A DNA stretch of 64,000 bases from Anolis carolinensis (Eukaryota): contig NC_085842.1 in the NCBI RefSeq assembly GCF_035594765.1, positions 148,007,036 through 148,071,035 on the forward strand, written 5' to 3'. The position numbers and the translations under genes were made by a program. Below, piece after piece: positions 10,923 to 64,000 of this stretch (within the stretch, counting starts at the first letter, position 1; each line of letters starts with the position of its first letter). Under the pieces are notes generated by a model. That model had not been told where the DNA came from. It was given only the letters and a program-made list of their open reading frames with translations, and did no database searches.

Positions 10923-12381
10923 TGTTGCACCCCAGCTGTGGGACACCTTTTCACCCAGACACCATGCAGGGATGAGATAATCCACTAAGTAAAGTTTATT
11001 AAGAAAAAAATATAAAAGATAAGAAGAAGCACACTAAAAAAGAACCATCCAAATTCCAAAGGACAAATCCAGAAACTTCAAAGTTGTTGTGTATAGATGA
11101 CAATCAATTTCATGAATCAAATCACAGGAATTCAAAAACTTGGAACTGCACTTTGAGTCAATACAGTGAAGCATGGCAAAATCCATACACTTTATCAGTT
11201 ATATACAGAACTTGAAAATGAAACAGAGAATCAACCAGATCAAAAATCATAAAGACTTGAACAGGAATTGAAATCCAGGAATTTGAAACTTGAACAAGCA
11301 AACATGAACAAGACCCAATAATCAGAAACTTGAACACCTTGAAGCAAAGCCATAAAACTTAAGAGTTGTTCCCACTTGAAATGCAACGTTGTTCTCACAA
11401 AGAGCAGTCTGCTTAAAGTCGACTTAAAAGCCAAAATTCCCTCTCATGACATCACTTCTCATACAGCTGGTTCTTTGCTGCTTATCTTGAAGCCTCTGAG
11501 AAAAATATGTCTGTCTCTCTTTCACACTCTCACGATGCAATTGCAGCTGTTCTGACCTAGGGAAAAACTCACACTCCCCCACATTCCTCTCAGGAGAAAA
11601 CTCTGGCAGAATCTCATGGGAACAGATTTTGCTTTATCTAACATTCTGAGAACTTCCAGGAGATTTACTAACACATCTCTCCATGCCACTTCCATTCCTC
11701 AAAACCCTCCTAAGACCCCTCAAAATCCCCTTCCTCATCCTCTGAAGCAGGGGTCCCCAAACTGCAGCCCGTGGGCCATATGCGGCCCATCAAAGCCATT
11801 TATCCGGCCCCTGCGGTGGCTGCTCCTGCCTCCGCTGAGGAAGGTGCGTGCGGTACAAAGGAGAAGGAGGGAAAGGCGTGTGCCTTTCCCTCCTCCCTCA
11901 TCCCATGCGCACCTTCCAACTGCTGCCGAGGAAGGCGCGCATGGGGTGAGGGAGGAGCCTCCTCACTCACACCACATGTGCCTTTCCCACCTCCTTCCTC
12001 GCCCAGTGCGCACCTTTCAAAACTTTGCTTGTGTTTATAATGGTATTTTAATTATTATTTAATTAATAATTATTAAGGGGTGCTTTGCTAGTGCTTTTGG
12101 TGCACAAAGGCAGAAGGGGGTTGGACTCAATGGCCCAAGGGGTCTCTTCCAACCGTCTTTATTATTTTTATTATGATTATGATATTATTAACATTGAGGC
12201 TGTATTTGTTCCCATTTTAAAAAAATTCAAAATAAGGTATGTTCAGTGTGCATAGGAATTTGTTCATAGTTTTTTTAAAAAAAACTATAGTCCGGTCTTC
12301 CAACAGTCTGAGGGACCGTGATTTGGCCCCCTGTTTAAAAAGTTTGGAGACGCCTGCTCTGAAGCATCAGATTCTTCAACA
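10923..12381 (-). mobile_element. Gypsy-type solo LTR, interrupted by a hAT MITE
   Basis: TGTTG...CAACA termini; perfect 5-bp TSD CTATA (10918-22, 12382-86); minus-strand AATAAA near the left end; similar to the LTR at 58329. Confidence 0.85.
11748..12356 (+). mobile_element. Non-autonomous hAT transposon, OC1/OposCharlie1-like
   Basis: TIRs CAGGGGTCCCCAAACT / AGTTTGGAGACGCCTG; perfect 8-bp TSD CTCTGAAG; subterminal TAGTCCGG..CCAAC.GTCTGAGGGAC..GGCCCCCTGTTTAAAAAGTTTG. Confidence 0.85.
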
Positions 12382-19900: not shown

Positions 19901-20808
19901 ATGCCATGTCTCCATGCTGTGTAGTTCCGGGACACATAGTTTTCCCAGGGAAACTGGGAAAAGGGAAGTGTCATTGTGGGAAGACAGGGCACAACCTCCC
20001 AGTATTAAGGCAGTCGTGCCTGGTCATCAGTGTTTCCATTATGTCCAAGTGACTGTACAAAGGGTGGGCATCCCTGCGAATGGATCCTGTCATCCTCTAC
20101 ACAGTCGAAGAATAGAGATAGATTGGCTCCATAGATGATGGGTGCTTGAGTCCTTAGTGTTTAGATCATGCCCAGGAAAACCGCTGGAGAGAGTTTCTGG
20201 GTCATGAGGGGCTGGCGAAAGGTCTTGATCAGTGGTGAGTTCACCAAAAGATGTTGTATACAAGGATATAAAATATAACATATTAAACAGGAACACAATG
20301 GGGACCTGTGGATACCATGGGCTCCTAGCTGAGGGAACCGGGGTGTCCACGGGGCTGGGGGTTTGTAAGGGATTAATTGTGGTGTGGGATGTGGCATGAG
20401 GGAGGAAGGGAAGATGGGAGCCCCACTCTGAGGGCCATAGGGGCCATGGGGCCATGTAGCCACTAATTCTGGCTGTGAGAGATGAAAGTGGAAGAGAAAG
20501 ACTCAGAAGGCAAAGAAGATGCAGATACAGAGGGTAACACACTATGGTGCCTGTTTATTGAGGGGTAATATTGTAATAAATTAGTCAAATTGAGAAATAC
20601 TGTATTGTAACTAAAAGTATCCTGCACACCAATAGCTGCTGCTGGACTCCTCCGTATTCCCGATCATTCACACAATTGACCTTTGTGAGTTAAAAGGGTT
20701 CTCACCTGCCACAGCTTGTCCCCACTGCGGCTCCAGCAAGGAAATTTATTATAATTTTGACATCATCCTACTGATGATGTTGAGCACTGATGATGTGCTC
20801 GACACCAT
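18491..20808 (-). mobile_element. 2.3-kb ERV/LTR-like insertion inside the RTE element
   Basis: Minus strand: CCAAT (18852-56), TATAAAA (18789-95), AATAAA (18703-08), end ...TATTTCA (18493); breakpoints uncertain by a few nt. Confidence 0.6.
19849..19900. repeat. (GTT)n microsatellite
   Basis: Direct repeat; source of the poly-V/L/C/T ORF artefacts. Confidence 0.95.
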
Positions 20809-20980
20809 CAGTAGGAAAAGAGGAAGACACTATTCCAGATGGATGGAATCAATCAAAGAACTGTAGCCTTGAATTTGCAAGATCTGAGCAGGCTGTTGAT
20901 GATAGGATGACTTAGTAGTCTCTGATTCCTAGGGTCACCATAAGTCCAAGTCTACTTGACAGCAGTTAACAACACCAGCA
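20809..20980 (+). mobile_element. RTE/BovB-like LINE 3' end, right part
   Basis: SRKRGRHYSRWMESIKE then AGGGTCACCATAAGTC...ACTTGACAGCAGTTAACAACA tail. Confidence 0.8.
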
Positions 20981-21417
20981 ACTATACAGTAATACCTTGA
21001 CATATGAGTTTAATTTGTTTCTGTTACCAAGCTCATCAGTTTGCTTGTATGTCAAATTAAATTTCCCTATTGAAATGCTATTAATCCTTTCCAGCCGCCC
21101 CGCCCCCCAAAAAAAACCCCCAAATAGCTCTTAAGCAGTTAGACTGGAAACTAAACTGTCTTGTCGAAGGCTTTCATTGCCGGAATCATTGGGTTGCTGT
21201 GAGATTTCCAGGCTGTATGGCTGTGTTATAGAAGCATTCTCTCCTGACGTTCCACTCACAAAATGCAGCATTGCCCAAACACGAATCAAGGAACATGAAA
21301 CGGACTGCAGACTAACTCAACCAGAGAACTCAGACATAGCAGAGCACTTGATGAACCAACCTGGACACAGTATATTATTTGAGAACACAGAAATGCTCAA
21401 CCACTCTTAACAACCAC

Positions 21418-21463
<46 letters not shown>

Positions 21464-21764
21464 TATTTATACCCTGCCACCATCTCCCCAATGGGGACTC
21501 GGGGCGGCTTACATGGGGCCATGCCCAGGACAATACAATATAGCAAATTATAAAAAACAACATATCATAATACAATTAAACAATACAATAAATAATCATA
21601 TACAGTACAACAAAAGTCAAAGAAGCAATATAACAGGGTGGGCCGCATGAACACTCAGTTAAAACTTGGGGTGAGAAAGAGATAAGAATAAAAACCACAG
21701 GGAACAGGGACATAAGATAGGAAAACAGTCTAGAGGATAGATGTTGGGGGGAGTAACAAAAGAA
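21418..21764 (-). mobile_element. L2 3' end inserted in the Penelope element
   Basis: (AAT)n tail then CTTTATTTATACCCTGCCACCATCTCCCC..GGGGACTCGGGGCGGCTTACA; Penelope frame resumes at about 21777. Confidence 0.8.
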
Positions 21765-24804: not shown

Positions 24805-25938
24805 CAGCAGTATATGTGAAAAAGACCTTAGAGTCCTTGTGGACAACAAGTTAAACATTATCCAACAATGTGATGTGGCAGCTAAAAAACCAATGGGATT
24901 TTGGCCTGCATAAATAGGAGTATAGGGTCTAGATCCAGGGAAGTCATGCTACACCTCTATTTTGCCTTGGTCAGACCACACCTTGAATACTGTCCAATTC
25001 TGGGAATCACCATTGAAGGGTGATGTTGACATGCTGGAATGTGTCCAGAGGAGGGTGACTAAAATGATCAAGGGCCTGGAGAACAAGCCCTATGAGGAGC
25101 GGCTTAAAGAACTAGACAGGTTTAGCCTGCAAAAGAGAAGGCTGAGAGGAGACATGATAGCCATGGATAAATATGTGAGGGGAAGTCATAGGGAGGAGGG
25201 AGCAAGCTTGTTTTCTACCGCCTTGAAGACTAGGTCGTGGAACAACGGCTTTAAACTACAAGAAACTACGTGACAGTGGCAGCTCGGATAGTATACGCTA
25301 GATATTGGAAAACCTCAGAGTTACCTCCCTTAGCAGAACTGGAACAATATATTATAGAGTTGCTGATGATGGACAAAATAACAATGCACTTAAAAGGAGA
25401 ACCTTTAGAGAACTTTGTTAATGAATGGCAACCAATGATCCAACATTTCAACGTAAAATTAATCTAAAAATGTACATAGAGGAAGCTAATAGACTGAAGG
25501 CAAGGAGGAAACAGATATAAATTTGGAACTTATAATATTTTTATATGTACTATACAAATAGTAGCCTGTGACCCCTTACTGAAAATATATTGTCTGAGAA
25601 ATGATTATGAAAGACTAATAGATGAAAGTATTGCATTATATGCAACAAACACTTGCAATGTATGCATATTTGAATGAATGAAAATAAATAAACATTACAT
25701 ATATAAACTACAGGACAGGAGATTCTACCTGAACATTAGGAAGAACTTCCTAACTGAGACAGCTGCTCAGCAGTGGAACTCTCTGCATCGGAGTGTGGTG
25801 GAGGCTCCTTCTTTGGAGGCTTTTAAGCAGAGGCTGTATGGTGCTTTGAATGCGATTTTCCTACTTCTTGGCAGGGGGTTGGATTGGATAGCCCATGAGG
25901 TCTCTTCCACCTCTATGATTCTATGACTCTATGATTAT
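24805..25938 (+). mobile_element. CR1 LINE 3' part, interrupted by L1
   Basis: LECVQRRVTKMIKGLENKPYEERLKEL..FSLQKRRLRGDMI...RRFYLNIRKNFLT; (TTCTATGA)n-type tail. Confidence 0.95.
25264..25703 (+). mobile_element. L1 3' fragment (ORF2 C-terminus and 3'UTR) inserted in CR1
   Basis: AARIVYARYWK...W motif of non-mammalian L1 ORF2; AATAAA; duplicated TAAACTACA(A/G)GA at both ends. Confidence 0.75.
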
Positions 25939-26104
25939 GATAGGGCTGGGGGGAAAAGACATTCTGTGTGGAGTTGCAGCAACATTGTCTACATTAAACA
26001 TTGCAATGACACCTAAAATGAGAAAGAATGCTTTACCTGACCTGGTTATTTCATTTCATGTATGTAGTTAGGAATGAAAAGTATATGGAGTCATGGTGAA
26101 GTTG

Positions 26105-33659: not shown

Positions 33660-34529
33660 TGTCAGACCTCTGTCAGCTGGGCACCAAGAACCATACACGG
33701 AGGCCAGTCTCTATCTAATATCTTTATTAAGGAAATATAGAAAAGCAATAAAAACAAGCGAAGAATATAGTTCAGAAGCAGACCTTTCAAATGAGGTCAA
33801 ATATAGTCCAAAAATGTAATGTCCAATAAATGATATTAGAGTTCAAAGTTTTAATCCACTTGACCGAAACACACACTTTTGCCAAGCAATAGTGTGGGGA
33901 AATGTCAGAGTCTTAGAAGTCCAATGGAGCTTGACAACAAGGCTGGAAATAAACTTGGTTCTTGACTAGGTCCGTGACTAGAAACAAGGCAAAACGTGAA
34001 GCGTGGAACAGGGTCCATGGTTAAACAGCAAGGCAAGGCAGCGCTTGGATTCTTGATCCGGGAGGCAAGGAACTGGGGTTACGAAGTCCACACACGATCT
34101 TACTCCTCAAGCCGATCTGTTGACTCCGCAAAGAATCTCTCGCACCAAACACCTATATTGGGTCTCGTTTTCCCGCCAACAAATCTCTTTCCCTAGAGAA
34201 CGAGAAGCGAAACCCAACTCTGTCCAGATGCATGACTCCTTAGAATTTCCCAAGGGAAGCAGGCCTAATCAGCCTGTTGTTTGGCAGCGATCCGTAAACT
34301 CCTCCGATTTGCTTCTCTGACTCCTCTGTCTCTAGAGTAAGATTCCTTCCTGGGAAACGGAGGGGAGTAATGCCCAAGGCCTGTTTTACTGAATTCTTGA
34401 GGGCAAACATCAACATCCGGCAGGTGAAGGGACTCCGGCTCTTGTTGAACCGGCGAAAACCCCATGTTTTCATCTTCATCTGCCACGATAGTACTAGGAA
34501 CAGGACTACAAGGCCCATGAGGCATCACA
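33660..34529 (-). mobile_element. Young Gypsy-type solo LTR (870 bp)
   Basis: TGTCA...TCACA; perfect 5-bp TSD AGTTT; CpGs retained; minus-strand TATA-like element near 34153 and AATAAA near 33725. Confidence 0.9.
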
Positions 34530-34571
34530 AGTTTGCACTAATAGGGAAAGAGCCTGCCTATGTGTTGTATC

Positions 34572-35310
34572 TGTTGTAGTTCAGCCCCTGATTGTGCCTG
34601 CACCTGATGTCACTGAGGAAATGGATCTGGGATTTTGGGGCCTGTGAGCCAGCAGGAGATTTTAAGTGCTGAAACTGAGCCATGTCTGTTTTCAGTAGCT
34701 AGTGAAGGCCACATTCCAGATGTTGTTGAAAAGCCTTTTGCTAGGGAAGCAAGGTCAGAGGCTGAGATGAGCTCAGAGGATGAAATTCCAGGGGGACAGG
34801 ATAATGAGCAGATAGATAGGAGACTTAGTTTTCATGAACGCAGAGCTGCTCAGCACTTGTTAGCCAAAAAGCCATTATCAGGTTCCCAGGGAAGACAGCA
34901 TGATTTCATGTCTATATTAGAGAGATCAGAGGGATTTTTCAGCAGTAAGGTCAATGTTGGAGTTTGAGAAGCAACATCCATGGTCAAGTCTTAGTTAGCC
35001 TTCTAAGGAATTTCTAGTGTCATGTTTCATGCTTTCAAGTTTCATGTTTTCAAGTTTAAGTTATTATTCCTGGATTTCTGTATTGGATTTTTATGCTGCC
35101 TTTGATATATCCTATGCTGGATTTCTTGTCTTAGATTTTGAAACAACTCTTGAATCTTATGGACTTTTTAAATACATGTAGACTTTGACATTTTTACTAT
35201 TTTTGCTGAACTGCTTTTTATACAATCTTAAATAAACTGCTTTGCTGTTTTAACTTGGACTGGAGTGTGGTGGATAAGTACAGAGGTATTTTCTGCCCTG
35301 GAGGAAAACA
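34572..35310 (+). mobile_element. Gypsy-type solo LTR (739 bp)
   Basis: TGTTG...AAACA; TSD GTATC/GCATC; AATAAA near 35231. Confidence 0.85.
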
Positions 35311-39249: not shown

Positions 39250-39375
39250 AATTTTTGAAACCAAGAGTGGATGGTCATCTGTTGCAATGGCTTTGATTGT
39301 GTATTCCTGCATAGTAGGATGGGGTTAGACTGGATGGTCCTTGGGGTATCTTCCAACTCTATGATTTTATGATTT
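39250..39375 (+). mobile_element. CR1 3' end
   Basis: TGGATGGTCATCTG...GGGGTTAGACTGGATGG...CTTCCAACTCTATGATT. Confidence 0.75.
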
Positions 39376-40082
39376 TGTATATTTTCATTGCTGCAGTCTT
39401 GGCACCTGTTTTATAATAATTGCAGATATATTACACCTCACATCAGCCTTCCACAAAATGATGTCCTTAAGGAATCCTATACCAGAGACTTTTAAGAGTA
39501 ACGTTTTTGAATGACAGCACCTGGAATCACCAAACCAATATCCATGTTGGCAGTTGGAATTATAGGAGTCCCATCCTCCTAACAAAACTCTTTTATTATT
39601 TATTGAGTGGTTCCCAATCCAGCCACTGTGATTGGGAACAATAGGGAATATATTCCAAAGAGAATAACAAGTACTGTAATGAGCCAGTGAAAGCACAATC
39701 TGGCATTCCTTTCAGAGTCCAAGATACTTATCGTACTGCCAACCACAATAAATTTAATAACTGACAATAATAATAATAATTGTCAAACATGAATTACAAT
39801 ATACTTCAAAATGTTTTTAGTGGCTATGACCATGTACTTTTTGCCCCTGTGAAGCCATGAGAAAGAATTTCCCAGTAAAAAGATGTTAATGATCAACTGC
39901 TACTGCCACCATTGTCTGTCTTTTGGATCTCACTGAAATTAGCTATGGGAGTGCAAATGGGAATTTAACCATCAAATAAAAAACATGCTCAGATAAGTGG
40001 TGTAAAATTGGGTTCAGTGTTTAGCTTTCCTTGTAAACATGTGAACATACTTTGTAGTGAGTGCAAGTGCCACTGTCTAGAC

Positions 40083-58328: not shown

Positions 58329-59080
58329 TGTTGCAGCCCAGCCACCTACTTGATCCCCTTTTCACCCAAACAGAACACAGATGAACAAGAATAGTAAGTT
58401 TATTAAGAAAAGAGTATCTAATATAAAAACAGTTTCAAAATACATCCACAAGCTAAACTTCCAGATGAAAGCAATAACCAACTAAAGGCAAAAGCAAGAA
58501 ACTGTAATCCAAGAGTTCTTGCACTTAAACTAGAATTATATCCAAAAGCTTGAAAGCATGAACATGATCATAATCCAAAGGCTTGATACTTGAACTTGAC
58601 TATAATCCAATGGCTTGAAACTTGAAACAAGATTTGTAATTCAAACCGATGCAGAGTCAAGAATAGAACTCCTAACTCGGAGCTCCAAGACAGGCAACTT
58701 GACACATGAAATCCAATGTTCATCTCCCCACTGAACATTGACTCCAATTCCTTAAGAATACTCCTTCTTGCTCATGACATCACACTTGGGTTCCCTTTGT
58801 TATCTTTCAGTCTCTGGGAACACTGGATTTGTCTCTGTTTCACACTGTCCCTTCTGATCTGTAAACACTAGGTTATCTGTAACCTCCTGTCTCCTCCACA
58901 TTCCTTTCAGAGTCAGTCCCTGGCCAATTCTCATGAGAATCACTGCCTGTTTTCCTGACAACAATCTACCCAAAACATTCCCATTGTCTCAAAAAAACAC
59001 TTTCACTTTCCCCCACAGAAACACCAGGCTCAACCAGAAAATCATTGTCCTCATCCTCAGAGGCTTCACAGGCCTCAACA
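58329..59080 (-). mobile_element. Gypsy-type solo LTR (752 bp)
   Basis: TGTTG...CAACA; perfect 5-bp TSD GTGCT; related to the LTR at 10923; internal CTTGAA repeats. Confidence 0.9.
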
Positions 59081-59775: not shown

Positions 59776-60880
59776 AGTAAGTAAGTAAGTAAAACTTTAT
59801 TTATATACCGTCCTCTCTCCCTGAAGGGACTCAGGGCGGTTTACAAGCATAAAAACAGCAACATACATTACATAAGCAGCACAATACACACATTATTAAA
59901 ACAAAATTAAAACCTATACAACTTGTAAAACAGTGAAAACCATAAAAAACAATCACAACAACCAGAAGAACAAGAATAAATAATCAGATGGGTTGACATG
60001 GTCCGTTATTAGGGGATCCTTGTACAGCATGTTTCAGGACCAAGGGTCAGCGGTATACCAGAGAAAATTATTCAAAATCCTGCCGAAACCACCAGGTTTT
60101 CAACTCTTTGCGAAAGAAAGACAGAGTAGGGGCTTGCCTAATCTCCTTCGGCAGGATATTCCAGAGCCGGGGGGCCACTACCGAGAAGGTCCACTCCCTC
60201 GTCCCCACCAGTCACGCTTGGGACGAAGGTGGGAGTGAGAAGAGGGCCTCCTCGGATGATCTCAGGGGCCGCACCAATTCATAGGGGGAGATGCAATCAC
60301 GGAGATAGGCAAGGCCCAAGCCATATAGGGCTTTATAGGTCAAAACCTGAACCTTGAACTGGGCCCGGCAGTTTATCGGCAGCCAGTGGAGCTGCTTTAA
60401 TAGGGGCGTTGTATTCTCCCTATAACCAGCTCCAGTTAGGAACCTGGCTGCTGACCTTTGACCAAGTTGGAGTTTCTGGACCATCTTCAAGGGCAGGCCC
60501 ATGTAGAGGGCAGGCCCATTGCAGTAATCCAATCTGGATGTAACCAAGGCGTGGACCACCGTGGCCAAGTCAGACTTCTCGAGGTATGGTCGCAGCTGGT
60601 GCACAAGTTTCAATTGTGCAAAGGCCCTCCCGGCCACTGCCAACACCTGAGCCTCAAGCATCAGCGATGAGTCCAGGAGGACCCCCAGACTGCGGACCTG
60701 CATTCTCAAGGGGAGTACAACCCCATCGAGCACAGGTTGCCACTCAATACCCTGACTGGTCCCACGACTGACCAGGAGGGCCTCTGTCTTGTCTGGATTA
60801 AGCTTCAACTTGTTAGCCCTCATCCAGTTCATCACAGCTGTCAGGCACTGGTTTAGGGTCTGGGCAGCTTCCTCGGAGAG
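59776..60880 (-). mobile_element. L2 LINE, 5'-truncated (RT C-terminal region and 3'UTR)
   Basis: ORF 60212-60886: WMRANKLKLNPDKTE...SLGVLLDSSL...VHALVTSRLDYCN...LHWLP; (AGTA)n tail. Confidence 0.95.
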
Positions 60881-62836
60881 CCACACTTTGACACTTTCAT
60901 TTAAATAATTCTGATGTGATGTTGTTTTTCAGGTGCAATGGCACTAGGGCAGATCATGATATTTGTTGACTGTCAATATACCATAGTCTTCTTCGTGGAA
61001 TCAGGTATGTGGTGGGTGGAATCAGTGAAAGTCATCTTGATGAGAACAGATATCCCAGGAGACAGGAAATGAGACAGAAGGAAAGGCACAAAGGGGAGTT
61101 TGAAACCTGATTATCTGGGGTACAGAAGAAAGTTCTAGACCTCATCCTTCTTTCACTACCAGAGGAAATGTACATAAAATCCTGTAAAGCTGATACCACT
61201 CATTTTCCTTCCCACAACCGGAAAGATCAGCAAAGCAGACAAGAAACCGAGCAGCTAAAGAAGGAACTCAAAACCCACCGAGCAAGCAAAGAGGGACACA
61301 AGGAAAAGCACCAAGGTCGATCGCATGGAGCCTCTGGGGAGCCACATGACATAATTCCCTTAAAATATTAATCCCCATTTTCACTGCGAGGTGAGTCAGC
61401 AGCAGTGATAAAACCCCAGAGAAGTCGTAAAAAGCAGGAGCAATTGATAAAGCGGAGAGTCAACATAATAAAACTCTGCCACGCTGAAGGTCAGGTCGCA
61501 CCTGTCTCAGTCAGGGCTATGAGCTCGCAGATGGATGGCTTGCCTGCTCCATGGCCCTCAGGGCCACTGAACAGATGTATCTGGGAAGGAGGTGTCACTC
61601 AACAAAACTTCAGTTGAGGGGAATTCAGAACCTGAAAGGTGCCACAGGGACACCCCAGTAAAACCTCTGCACCCCAAAGTTTCTTAAGGGTGACAGAACC
61701 TTTGTGCTGTATGCCTTGATGCAGGTAGAAAGGAACTTATCTCCCATAATAGTCATGCACCTCTTATGTAGGCTGAAAACTGAGTATGAATGATGATACT
61801 CGGAGGATGGGGAAAGGTACACACACCAATAATCAATTATTTGATCCATCCTTGCCAGACGTGTAAACTGACCCTACTGAAAAGCATTGCCTCTCATCAT
61901 GTTGTGGTATTCTACACAACAAAAATCTAGACATTTGAGGTCATCTGCAAGGATATAGATATTCCATCATCAGACTGAGCCATTCTCACATGTATAATTC
62001 AGCACTGGATACTACACACAAGCAGCACATATTCCTAGTACTGCTATCTTCATGATCAGCCAGATTAAAACTTCACAACCAGTAAATGCAACAGCATTGC
62101 TGTGGAGTAAAGGTTTCCAGTAGTTTCAAGTGCATGGGTATGCTCATACCAGCAAATGCATTGGTAGCTGAAGGAGACTCATCTTAAAGGATTCTGGAAA
62201 TACAGTTCAGTAGGCTGCCAGAAACAGCCATACAGTAATGCATTGCCTTGGTTTTTGTAAATAGAAAAACCATTGCAAAGGGTATTTACATGTACTGAGC
62301 TAAAAGATAGTTAATAGCTATCTTTATGGAGGGTGCAGGAGAGGTTGGCATAGCAGGCATGGCAGCCCTTTAATATGAAATGTTAGGGCCAACTTGAGAT
62401 GGAGACACAAGTGGTACCTATATCTGCCAAGTCAAGTTGTATATTATTGTATATTTGCAACATCAAATTAAAAATCCTAAAGTGCTTCTCCCTCTCCCTG
62501 GGAGGAAAGAAACAACAATAACAAACTGAACAACTAGCAATATCCTGCCCTTCCTGACCTCAAATATACTGTCTATGCTTGACACCTCACTTTAATGGTA
62601 GGGTTGTCCCTGGAAGGACATGCTCCTTAACCCTTCTCTGGCTCAGCCCTCCCAGGGACTCCGGTACTCTCTTAAGAAGTATGGGTGGATATTCCTACAG
62701 CTATAAAGGTGGTTTAGAAAGGATTATGCCAGCGGGCTTTTATCCTAAGAATTTCAGAAACTATCTGATGTACTGACCCATACTAAAAAATAGGGTCTCA
62801 GAGGGAATTTGGAAGTTAGTGTTCAAAGGGAGGAGG

Positions 62837-63330
62837 TGTTGTAGCTCAGCAGCAGTCACAGCAGCCAGGGGCTGATGGGTTCACTGATCACTTAGAGTCA
62901 GACAGGATTGTGGTCTTTCCTTGGATTTATTCTGATGCAGGCCCTGGGATTCATTCTCATGCAGGCCAAGAAAGTGAAATTGTTTTAGATAGAGATGCCG
63001 GCAATGGTGCAGGGTCTGAGAATGTAATTACCTTTGACCCTCAAGGCCAAACATAGGAGTTGGAACCATCCTCTCCAGATATAGAGTCTAGCGAAGATGA
63101 ATTGATGAGAAACTCTCATGGAAACACACCTGGTGATACTGACCTAAGCAAGAAGGCACACTTGCAGGTTCGAGCAGATAGCCAACTTAATAGATCAACA
63201 CAGCTTCATGGGAAGCAGAAAATCCAGGGTAGACGTAACAGGGGGCTTCTCATCTACAACACTCATGGGAGAAGCTCTAGGGTTGTGTTTAAACACAGAT
63301 TGAGTGTGGTGCAGTTATGGACATTAGTTT
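62837..63330 (+). mobile_element. Gypsy-type LTR, 3'-truncated
   Basis: Starts TGTTGTAGCTCAGC like the LTR at 34572; long coding-like U3; right end and TSD not found. Confidence 0.6.
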
Positions 63331-64000
63331 TTAAAAGGCTCTTTATACGAGGAACTAATCTACACTGAGCAGTTTAACCTTGTGCAAAATGCTCTGGAAT
63401 AATCTCAGATTTTTCACATTTATATCAAATCTGGAGTCATTATTCAGAAGGCCTAGGGGCACATTCACTCCATTAGTGTGGTACACATCTCACCTCTGTG
63501 ATGCTGTTGGTGCCTCTCCTAAGTGGCCATGGAGTTGCACTCGAGCTCTTGGTCATATGAGCACTTCTGCCAGTATCGAAACAGGCCACCTACACAACCA
63601 GCAAGAAGAAAGGGAGATTGTTTCCCTCCTTGCTGATTGTACAGACAACCCACTCTGGCACTGGCAATGCAATCTTCAATAGCTAGGAGCTCAGACAAAG
63701 CTTAGACATGGGACAGTGCAACATGGGCACAATCCATCCGCTTTCCCTGTGCTGATGAACTCAGGAAAAGAGTGATGATGCTGTGTTCAATCTGAGCAGC
63801 AGATCAGTCTGAAGCGGGCAGTCTCACTATCCAAATAGCTTTGAAGCTATGACATACTCCAGAGTTTCCAGCAAACTCCAAAGTACTTTAAAGTACGTCC
63901 ATTAAAGTATTGTTAGATTTCCAAGCAATGGCTGGGATGGGCAATGGCTGGGGTGATGGATTAAGGCACATGCCTATCCCATGGCTTCTTTTTCTTGATT

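What the first reader, a model, noticed from the sequence alone, without database searches (positions are those of the whole stretch)
34265..34529. Five diverged solo LTRs encode, in the same phase, an acidic peptide ending in an HMGN-like RRSxRL motif
Seen: reading from LTR base 2 (T|GTN), each U3 is coding-like. 34528 minus: VMPHGP...DEDENMGFSPVQQE...ANRRSLRIAAKQQ (87 codons, no stop). 34573 plus: VVVQP...TEEMDLGF, frameshift, GPVSQQE...ERRAAQHLLAKK. 12380 minus: VEESDASEDEEGDF...SQRLQDKQ. 59079 minus: VEACEASEDEDNDF...RQIQCSQRLKDNK. 62838 plus: VVAQQQ...SSEDE...LNRSTQLHGKQK. The older copies have stops or frameshifts. The DNA of several is barely alignable, yet phase, acidic tract and basic motif persist. 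Established: pol can run through the PPT into the 3' LTR in some Gypsy elements; RRSARLSAK is the HMGN core that binds the H2A-H2B acidic patch; some retroviruses tether to nucleosomes by short arginine anchors. Inference: this squamate Gypsy lineage has an LTR-encoded Pol/integrase tail acting as a nucleosome anchor or NLS.
Basis: partly seen in the sequence, partly recalled or inferred. Interest (0 to 1): 0.75.

Follow-up and report, generated by a model that had tools for sequence, protein, structure and literature searches.

The report
Lizard retrotransposon integrase with HMGN-like tail
One of the five repeats is the end-piece of a lizard jumping gene whose predicted integrase protein runs on into that end-piece and finishes with a short motif almost identical to known nucleosome-gripping motifs, so it likely helps hold the integration machinery on chromatin; the other four repeats are not shown to share it.

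Summary
Partly confirmed, and stronger than claimed for one copy. LTR A (34529-33660, minus, perfect 5-bp target duplication) is a solo LTR of an Anolis chromovirus. In 37 of 56 fetched proteins a chromodomain lies exactly 58 residues before A's first peptide, across the junction ...GDS|VM.HGP. So Pol gene models run through the PPT into U3; I could not check this junction on DNA. The 32 complete tails (85-97 aa) diverge to 42% identity, yet 29 keep RRSxRI near the C-terminus. Sixteen read RRSARIA, the same seven residues that start yeast Dot5's proven acidic-patch motif RRSARIAT. The chromodomain keeps the HP1 aromatic cage. Best reading: a bivalent chromatin tether (methyl-H3K9 plus acidic patch); binding is untested. 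For B-E the claim is weaker. B, C and D are solo LTRs; E lacks a target duplication. Their U3 frames look coding, but no link to Pol or to A was found, three need frameshifts to reach the motif, and their motif matches are at chance level. Pol running into the 3' LTR is known from plant CRM elements; an HMGN-like motif on a retrotransposon integrase was not found in print.

The parts
33660..34529 (-). LTR A: 870-bp solo LTR of an Anolis chromovirus (Ty3/Gypsy), TGTGATG...TCTGACA, target duplication AAACT
   Evidence: family assignment
34265..34528 (-). 87-codon U3 frame plus stop; equals the C-terminal tail of Pol/integrase in Anolis gene models
34280..34306 (-). RRSLRIAAK, HMGN/Dot5-like motif, starting 13 residues from the protein end
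   Evidence: motif definitions
34572..35310 (+). LTR B: 739-bp older solo LTR, head to head with A (42 bp apart); frame break near 34627-34637, then 109 stop-free codons 34638-34964; internal partner unknown
10923..12381 (-). LTR C: solo LTR, target duplication TATAG, same family as D; stops and frameshifts in U3
11748..12356 (.). 609-bp DNA-transposon-like insert with 8-bp target duplication (CTTCAGAG) inside LTR C; the label hAT-like is recalled, not tested
58329..59080 (-). LTR D: 752-bp solo LTR, target duplication AGCAC; third-codon-position excess against C
62837..63723 (+). Element E: LTR-like start preceded by a purine run, 176 codons with one internal stop in the base-2 frame; right end tentative, no target duplication

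Best explanation
LTR A is a solo LTR of an Anolis chromovirus whose Pol gene models continue through the polypurine tract into U3, adding an 85-97-residue tail after the chromodomain, and the tail's terminal RRS[A/L]RIAA[K/R] likely grips the H2A-H2B acidic patch as the HMGN, Dsup and Dot5 motifs do. Steps: (1) shown in the window: solo LTR with an open 87-codon frame from base 2; (2) shown in gene models, not on DNA: RT-RH-IN-SH3-chromodomain-tail in one frame; (3) shown: the motif is kept while the linker drifts in sequence and length; (4) inferred: the tail stays on mature integrase; (5) predicted: the chromodomain reads methylated H3K9 and the arginine anchor binds the acidic patch at the end of a flexible acidic linker, so the integration complex is tethered at two points; (6) inferred: solo LTRs carry the frame as a passive leftover. 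B, C/D and E are older LTR families whose U3 probably also coded for a protein tail, but their link to Pol and to this motif is not shown.
For: Tail search found Anolis models with rve, SH3 and Chromo domains before the tail; P0038 holds RT, RNase H, integrase, chromodomain and tail. 37 of 56 proteins have the chromodomain core exactly 58 aa before VM.HGP; the junction is LEEGDS in 33 of 37 and G-rich variants in 4, as a purine-rich PPT would encode (inference). Among 32 complete tails pairwise identity is min 42%, mean 67%, against min 83%, mean 92% for the 150 aa upstream; motif R1, R2 and S3 are kept in 31 of 32 each, R5 and I6 in 32 of 32, position 4 varies A/L. Lengths 85, 87, 92 and 97 each recur; the motif starts 13 aa from the end in 30 of 32. 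Among 8 representatives under 80% identity, 6 of 8 motif positions are invariant against 28 of 87 overall. HMGN2 binds by R23/R26 of RRSAR and Dsup by RRSSR (PMC12487698); Dot5 RRSARIAT needs R6, R7, R10 (PMC13347269). Cage F-W-F aligns with HP1 Y-W-F and is present in 35 of 37. 0 of 78 distant chromovirus loci had such a motif and 1 had a tail of 60 aa or more. C versus D: 26 of 47 mismatches at third positions, p 0.0016.
Against: The PPT-U3 junction was seen only in automatic gene models, which were found by searching with the tail and favour open frames; the same LTR exon is also tacked onto unrelated models (ATP13A, LINE RT), and P0012 leaves the element at the junction. No DNA of full elements, so no dN/dS for family A. 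The motif lies just upstream of likely promoter DNA, so DNA-level constraint could add to its conservation; the first 9 codons (LTR terminus) are as conserved. A short RRSxR word is common: a looser DNA pattern is expected about 4 times per window. All relatives come from one species' annotation. The tail profile gave no hit to B-E; peptide scores between A and B-E were at shuffle level. The C-D segments were partly chosen by peptide likeness, which inflates the third-position excess.
Confidence: 0.55

Rival explanations
1. The tail is real and selected, but its basic end works as a nuclear localisation signal or a general DNA/RNA-binding patch, and the likeness to HMGN/Dot5 is incidental.
For: The last 29 residues of A hold 9 K/R. 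C-terminal NLSs are known for Ty1 integrase (reference titles seen). Short arginine words are common.
Against: Conservation picks out R1, R2, S3, R5, I6 and lets position 4 vary, as among HMGN, Dsup and Dot5; neighbouring basic residues are not conserved; the word is not a K-rich classical NLS (general knowledge).
Confidence: 0.22
2. Pol merely reads on to the first stop in U3; the tail is a tolerated appendix and the conserved positions reflect LTR DNA elements (terminus, promoter boxes).
For: The first 9 codons at the LTR terminus are as conserved as the motif; tails diverge much faster than integrase; no dN/dS could be computed; gene models are biased to open frames.
Against: Four recurrent tail lengths all keep the frame to the same terminal motif; A/L and K/R exchanges within the motif; third-position excess in the C/D family; most distant chromoviruses stop soon after the chromodomain.
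Confidence: 0.13
3. All five LTRs belong to one old squamate Gypsy lineage and all once encoded the same RRSxRL anchor; B-E have decayed beyond recognition.
For: A-D share architecture: AATAAA 69-80 nt from the end, TGGAYT repeats, a TCATG word near base 300; DNA scores of z 4-7 between A-D on 40 shuffles; B, C, D, E are CpG-depleted (o/e 0.04-0.15); the best C-D peptide match sits on the motif-like words; B and E frames have fewer stops than shuffles.
Against: No protein link for B; tail profile misses B-E; motif sites at chance level; termini differ (TGTGA..TGACA versus TGTTG..AACA); the z-scores ignore shared base-composition gradients; E is not shown to be an LTR.
Confidence: 0.3

Closest known systems
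Plant CRM group A centromeric chromoviruses (CR motif; PMC3059260, passages read)
   Same: Pol runs through the PPT into the 3' LTR, and the LTR encodes a conserved putative chromatin-targeting motif at the integrase C-terminus.
   Different: In CRM-A the CR motif replaces the chromodomain and its partner was unidentified in that paper; here a full-cage chromodomain is kept upstream of the PPT and the LTR adds an HMGN-like motif. The CR motif sequence is in a figure I could not see, so the two motifs were not compared.
Beet Bingo chromoviruses (PMC3605345, passages read)
   Same: Chromodomain upstream of the PPT with the ORF extending into the flanking LTR in several families.
   Different: Group II chromodomain, plant; no conserved terminal anchor was described in the passages read.
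HMGN / Dsup / Dot5 nucleosome-binding motif (PMC12487698 parts 1-2 of 5 read; PMC13347269 passages and Discussion read)
   Same: RRSxR[LI] core with all three arginines; RRSARIA identical to Dot5 in 16 of 32 tails.
   Different: Carried by a retrotransposon Pol tail, encoded in an LTR; binding not tested; no other HMGN region.
Chromoviruses with group I chromodomain (MAGGY-type; Gao et al. 2008 known only through citations)
   Same: Domain order RT-RH-IN-SH3-chromodomain; three aromatic cage positions kept.
   Different: 0 of 78 distant chromovirus loci fetched had the motif and 77 had under 60 aa after the chromodomain.
Retroviral chromatin tethers (MLV p12, passages; foamy virus Gag arginine anchor, recalled)
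   Same: A short virus-encoded peptide tethers the integration complex to chromatin.
   Different: Those are Gag-encoded; this one would be on integrase and coded in U3.

Membership tests
Chromovirus (Ty3/Gypsy), family of LTR A | Pol order RT-RNase H-integrase | tested here: met
   P0038 and P0031 Pfam order
Chromovirus (Ty3/Gypsy), family of LTR A | Chromodomain at the integrase C-terminus | tested here: met
   PF00385 E 5e-10 in P0003; HP1 matches
Chromovirus (Ty3/Gypsy), family of LTR A | TG..CA LTR with target-site duplication | tested here: met
   AAACT/AAACT
Chromovirus (Ty3/Gypsy), family of LTR A | Placement in the chromovirus clade by RT tree | not tested
   no tree built
Group I chromodomain | Three aromatic cage residues | tested here: met
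   F-W-F in 35 of 37, aligned to HP1 Y-W-F; first residue is F, not the Y given in PMC3605345
Group I chromodomain | Binds methylated H3K9 | not testable with these tools
   needs a binding assay
HMGN-like acidic-patch motif | R-R-S-x-R core with three arginines | tested here: met
   29 of 32 tails RRSxRI; copy A RRSLRI
HMGN-like acidic-patch motif | Full HMGN consensus RRSARLSA | tested here: not met
   tails read RRS[A/L]RIA[A] or close variants; Dot5 and Dsup also depart from it, so this bars only the name HMGN
HMGN-like acidic-patch motif | Acidic-patch-dependent nucleosome binding | not testable with these tools
   needs wild-type versus acidic-patch-mutant nucleosomes
CRM clade group A | [quoted passage not shown] | tested here: met
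   in gene models only
CRM clade group A | CR motif in place of a chromodomain | tested here: not met
   a true chromodomain is present
B, C/D, E as members of A's lineage | Detectable homology of the U3 peptide or linkage to chromovirus Pol | tested here: inconclusive
   no hits; full elements not available

The most novel reading that the evidence does not exclude
Anole Gypsy elements have evolved, inside their own LTR, an HMGN/Dot5-type arginine anchor that with the chromodomain makes integrase a bivalent nucleosome reader (H3K9me plus acidic patch); LTR-encoded anchors are a recurrent design across several LTR families in this genome and are the functional counterpart of the plant CR motif.
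Probability: 0.35. Interest if true: 0.8.

Novelty: new variant of a known kind. Interest (0 to 1): 0.62.

Why it matters
How vertebrate Gypsy elements hold on to chromatin and choose sites is little studied. A 9-residue motif matching proven acidic-patch binders, behind a full-cage chromodomain, gives a cheap direct test with short peptides. If it binds, it adds a transposon integrase to the few known non-HMGN carriers of this motif (Dsup, Dot5), shows that U3 can double as a fast-evolving targeting module in animals, and suggests what to look for in the plant CR motif. It also explains why this LTR keeps appearing as a false last exon in anole gene models.

Tried and rejected
No whole genome is held, so full elements could not be pulled out. 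Reads laid on A and B did not list a PPT-side loose end at 34529; 1492 loose ends were not shown. No RNA holder listed; this says nothing on expression. Complex prediction of the last 32 tail residues with a stand-in H2A-H2B pair gave 'no answer', score 0.01; PMC12487698 reports that AlphaFold 3 also fails on HMGN2. Viral contigs held no relative. B's 109-codon frame: no longer protein relative, no Atlas hit, no Pfam. E's upstream 2 kb: no retroelement domain in six frames, no partner LTR. The A tail end has no solved-structure match up to E 10. Atlas with chromodomain plus tail gave only chromodomain clusters under 0.9. Earlier-findings look-ups were empty. P0007 (5152 aa, no matched stretch) was dropped as a chance hit before the count of 56. 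Seven other TG..CA candidates with 5-bp duplications were not taken as LTRs; only 20252-21758 was read and it showed no such tail. Frame-keeping indels in B's family (10 of 32 listed pieces lie in 34638-34855, gap totals 0, 3 or 12) probably stand for two events, so they were given little weight. The bacterial promoter scan is not meaningful here.

Full report
Observation. I label the elements A (34529 minus), B (34572 plus), C (12381 minus), D (59080 minus) and E (62837 plus). A scan for TG..CA ends with a 5-bp duplication and an AATAAA near the end recovered A (870 bp, AAACT/AAACT), B (739 bp, GTATC/GCATC), C (1459 bp with insert, TATAG/TATAG) and D (752 bp, AGCAC/AGCAC), along with 7 other candidates that I did not take as LTRs. 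E was not recovered: it has no duplication and no AATAAA, and a purine run lies directly upstream. C carries a 609-bp insert with an 8-bp duplication. By blastn only C and D align (60-65%).

How far it is more than chance. A's 87 codons have no stop (shuffle mean 3.6, p 0.022); B's second frame has 109 codons without a stop (p 0.001); E's frame has 2 stops in 177 codons including the terminal one (0 of 1000); these stretches were picked after seeing them. Acidic residues are enriched in the first 40 codons for A and D, not for B or E. The frame from base 2 reaches the motif-like words unbroken only in A and E. An exact RRSxR[LI] is found once in both strands of the window, in A; the best sites in B to E differ by 2-3 bases and 0.3-3.5 such sites are expected per region. 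A looser DNA pattern is expected about 4 times per window, so one motif alone proves little. A profile of the A-family tails scored only A strongly (E 2e-40; next best 0.025 at an unrelated place) and did not list B-E. Peptide scores were at shuffle level for 9 of 10 pairs; only C-D stood out, on the motif-like words. In C against D, 26 of 47 mismatches fall on third positions (p 0.0016); the largest segment was chosen by peptide likeness, so this is moderate evidence that this U3 once coded.

What A is. A search of longer proteins with A's peptide gave 5 hits, all Anolis carolinensis models. P0003 and P0004 have SH3 and chromodomain (P0003 also the integrase core), then ...GDS followed directly by A's peptide at 74-82% identity. 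A second search and cluster look-up enlarged the set. Of 56 proteins examined (P0007 dropped), 45 matched a chromodomain pattern and 37 had it exactly 58 residues before VM.HGP. The six residues before the junction are LEEGDS in 33 of 37 and glycine-rich variants in 4, as a purine-rich PPT would encode (inference). P0038 holds RT, RNase H, integrase, SH3, chromodomain and tail in one model. This rests on automatic gene models found with the tail as bait; no DNA across the junction could be had. The constant spacing in 37 models makes an intron at this spot unlikely (inference). Against: the same LTR frame also ends unrelated models (4 of 7 ATP13A cluster members, a LINE RT), and P0012 leaves the element at the junction. 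In all four runs laid, A's bins were far deeper than B's, and both far deeper than the flanks; the tool warns that this is no copy number.

The tail. Thirty-two of the 37 tails are complete (85-97 aa; lengths 97, 92, 85, 87 in 11, 9, 6, 4 models). Their pairwise identity is min 42%, mean 67%, against min 83%, mean 92% for the 150 residues upstream. Identity to A averages 0.46 in the middle and 0.89 in the motif, and also 0.89 in the first 9 codons at the LTR terminus. The motif reads RRSARIAAK 12, RRSLRIAAK 9, RRSARIAAR 4, RRSARITAK 2 and five single variants. It starts 13 residues from the end in 30 of 32. Among 8 representatives under 80% identity, 6 of 8 motif positions are invariant against 28 of 87 overall; these are related sequences from one species, not independent trials. 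The chromodomain keeps F-W-F at the HP1 cage positions in 35 of 37. As a comparison, 78 of 80 distant chromovirus loci from metagenomes could be read past the chromodomain: none had R[RK][ST]xR, one had 60 residues or more, two were cut by contig ends, and many were near copies of each other.

How it likely works. Cryo-EM shows HMGN2 (RRSAR) and Dsup (RRSSR) binding the acidic patch by arginine anchors (PMC12487698, parts 1-2 of 5 read). Yeast Dot5 has RRSARIAT, needs its three arginines, and loses binding on acidic-patch mutants (PMC13347269, passages and Discussion read). Sixteen of 32 tails carry RRSARIA, and the position that varies in the tails is the one that differs between HMGN and Dsup. 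I therefore read the integrase C-terminus as a predicted two-point tether: chromodomain on methylated H3K9, then an acidic, proline-rich linker of variable length, then an arginine anchor on H2A-H2B. Shown: LTR, open frame, motif conservation. Shown in gene models only: Pol continuity. Inferred: retention on mature integrase. Predicted and untested: both binding events. Solo LTRs carry the frame passively. Rivals are an NLS or nucleic-acid-binding patch, and neutral read-through with DNA-level constraint; no dN/dS was possible because only proteins were available.

B to E. They probably had coding U3 regions too (stop depletion in B and E, third-position excess in C/D). A-D share the place of AATAAA, TGGAYT repeats and a TCATG word near base 300, and DNA scores of z 4-7 on 40 shuffles that ignore composition gradients. 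Their low CpG content (o/e 0.04-0.15 against 0.57 in A) would erode arginine codons. But B's frame found no protein relative, C, D and E were not searched against the protein collection, their termini differ from A's, and their superfamily is unknown. The five-copy, one-motif claim stays open.

What is known. Pol extending into the 3' LTR is established: in all group A CRM elements, where the LTR encodes the CR motif (PMC3059260, passages), and in beet Bingo elements with the chromodomain upstream of the PPT (PMC3605345, passages). Chromatin tethering by MLV p12 and chromodomain targeting are reviewed in PMC5053271 (passages); Gao et al. 2008 was seen only as a citation, and the foamy-virus Gag anchor is recalled. 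Searches for a retrotransposon integrase with an HMGN-like or acidic-patch motif, or for this anole family, listed nothing that describes it (listings only, except the papers named). The library lacks most subscription journals, Repbase and Dfam; figures and supplements were not seen, so the CR motif sequence and any repeat-database note on this ORF may bear on novelty.

Verdict. A new variant of a known kind: a chromovirus whose LTR-encoded Pol tail ends in a Dot5/HMGN-like motif. Read-through about 0.9, protein-level selection on the motif about 0.8, acidic-patch binding about 0.6 (my estimates). Interest 0.62.

Noticed in passing
P0001, P0060, P0061, P0062, P0005 (ATP13A5-like models), P0002, P0006: Host or LINE gene models end in this LTR's U3 frame; 4 of 7 members of the ATP13A5 cluster end in the same tail, while its two RefSeq members do not. 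Probably annotation artefacts; true exonisation is not excluded.
   Followed up: partly
window 62825-62850: Purine run directly upstream of E reads SKGGG into V in the base-2 frame, like a PPT junction, with a stop five codons earlier; E may be the 3' LTR of a decayed element. B and E share 13 of their first 14 bases and an SSEDE word.
   Followed up: partly
window 34529-34572: LTRs A and B lie head to head only 42 bp apart.
   Followed up: no
window 11748-12356: DNA-transposon-like insert in LTR C with an internal inverted repeat and a SINE-like piece also found at 25840-25942 and 39290-39428.
   Followed up: no
window 60212-60928 minus: 238-codon open frame that looks like a LINE reverse-transcriptase C-terminal part; label from recall.
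   Followed up: no
P0015 (XP_062825005.1): Named calmodulin-lysine N-methyltransferase isoform X1 by its source, but it is wholly a chromovirus integrase with the tail.
   Followed up: partly
L081:1362-2562: A 911-kb viral contig carries adjacent H2A-like and H2B-like genes that appear to keep the acidic-patch residues.
   Followed up: no
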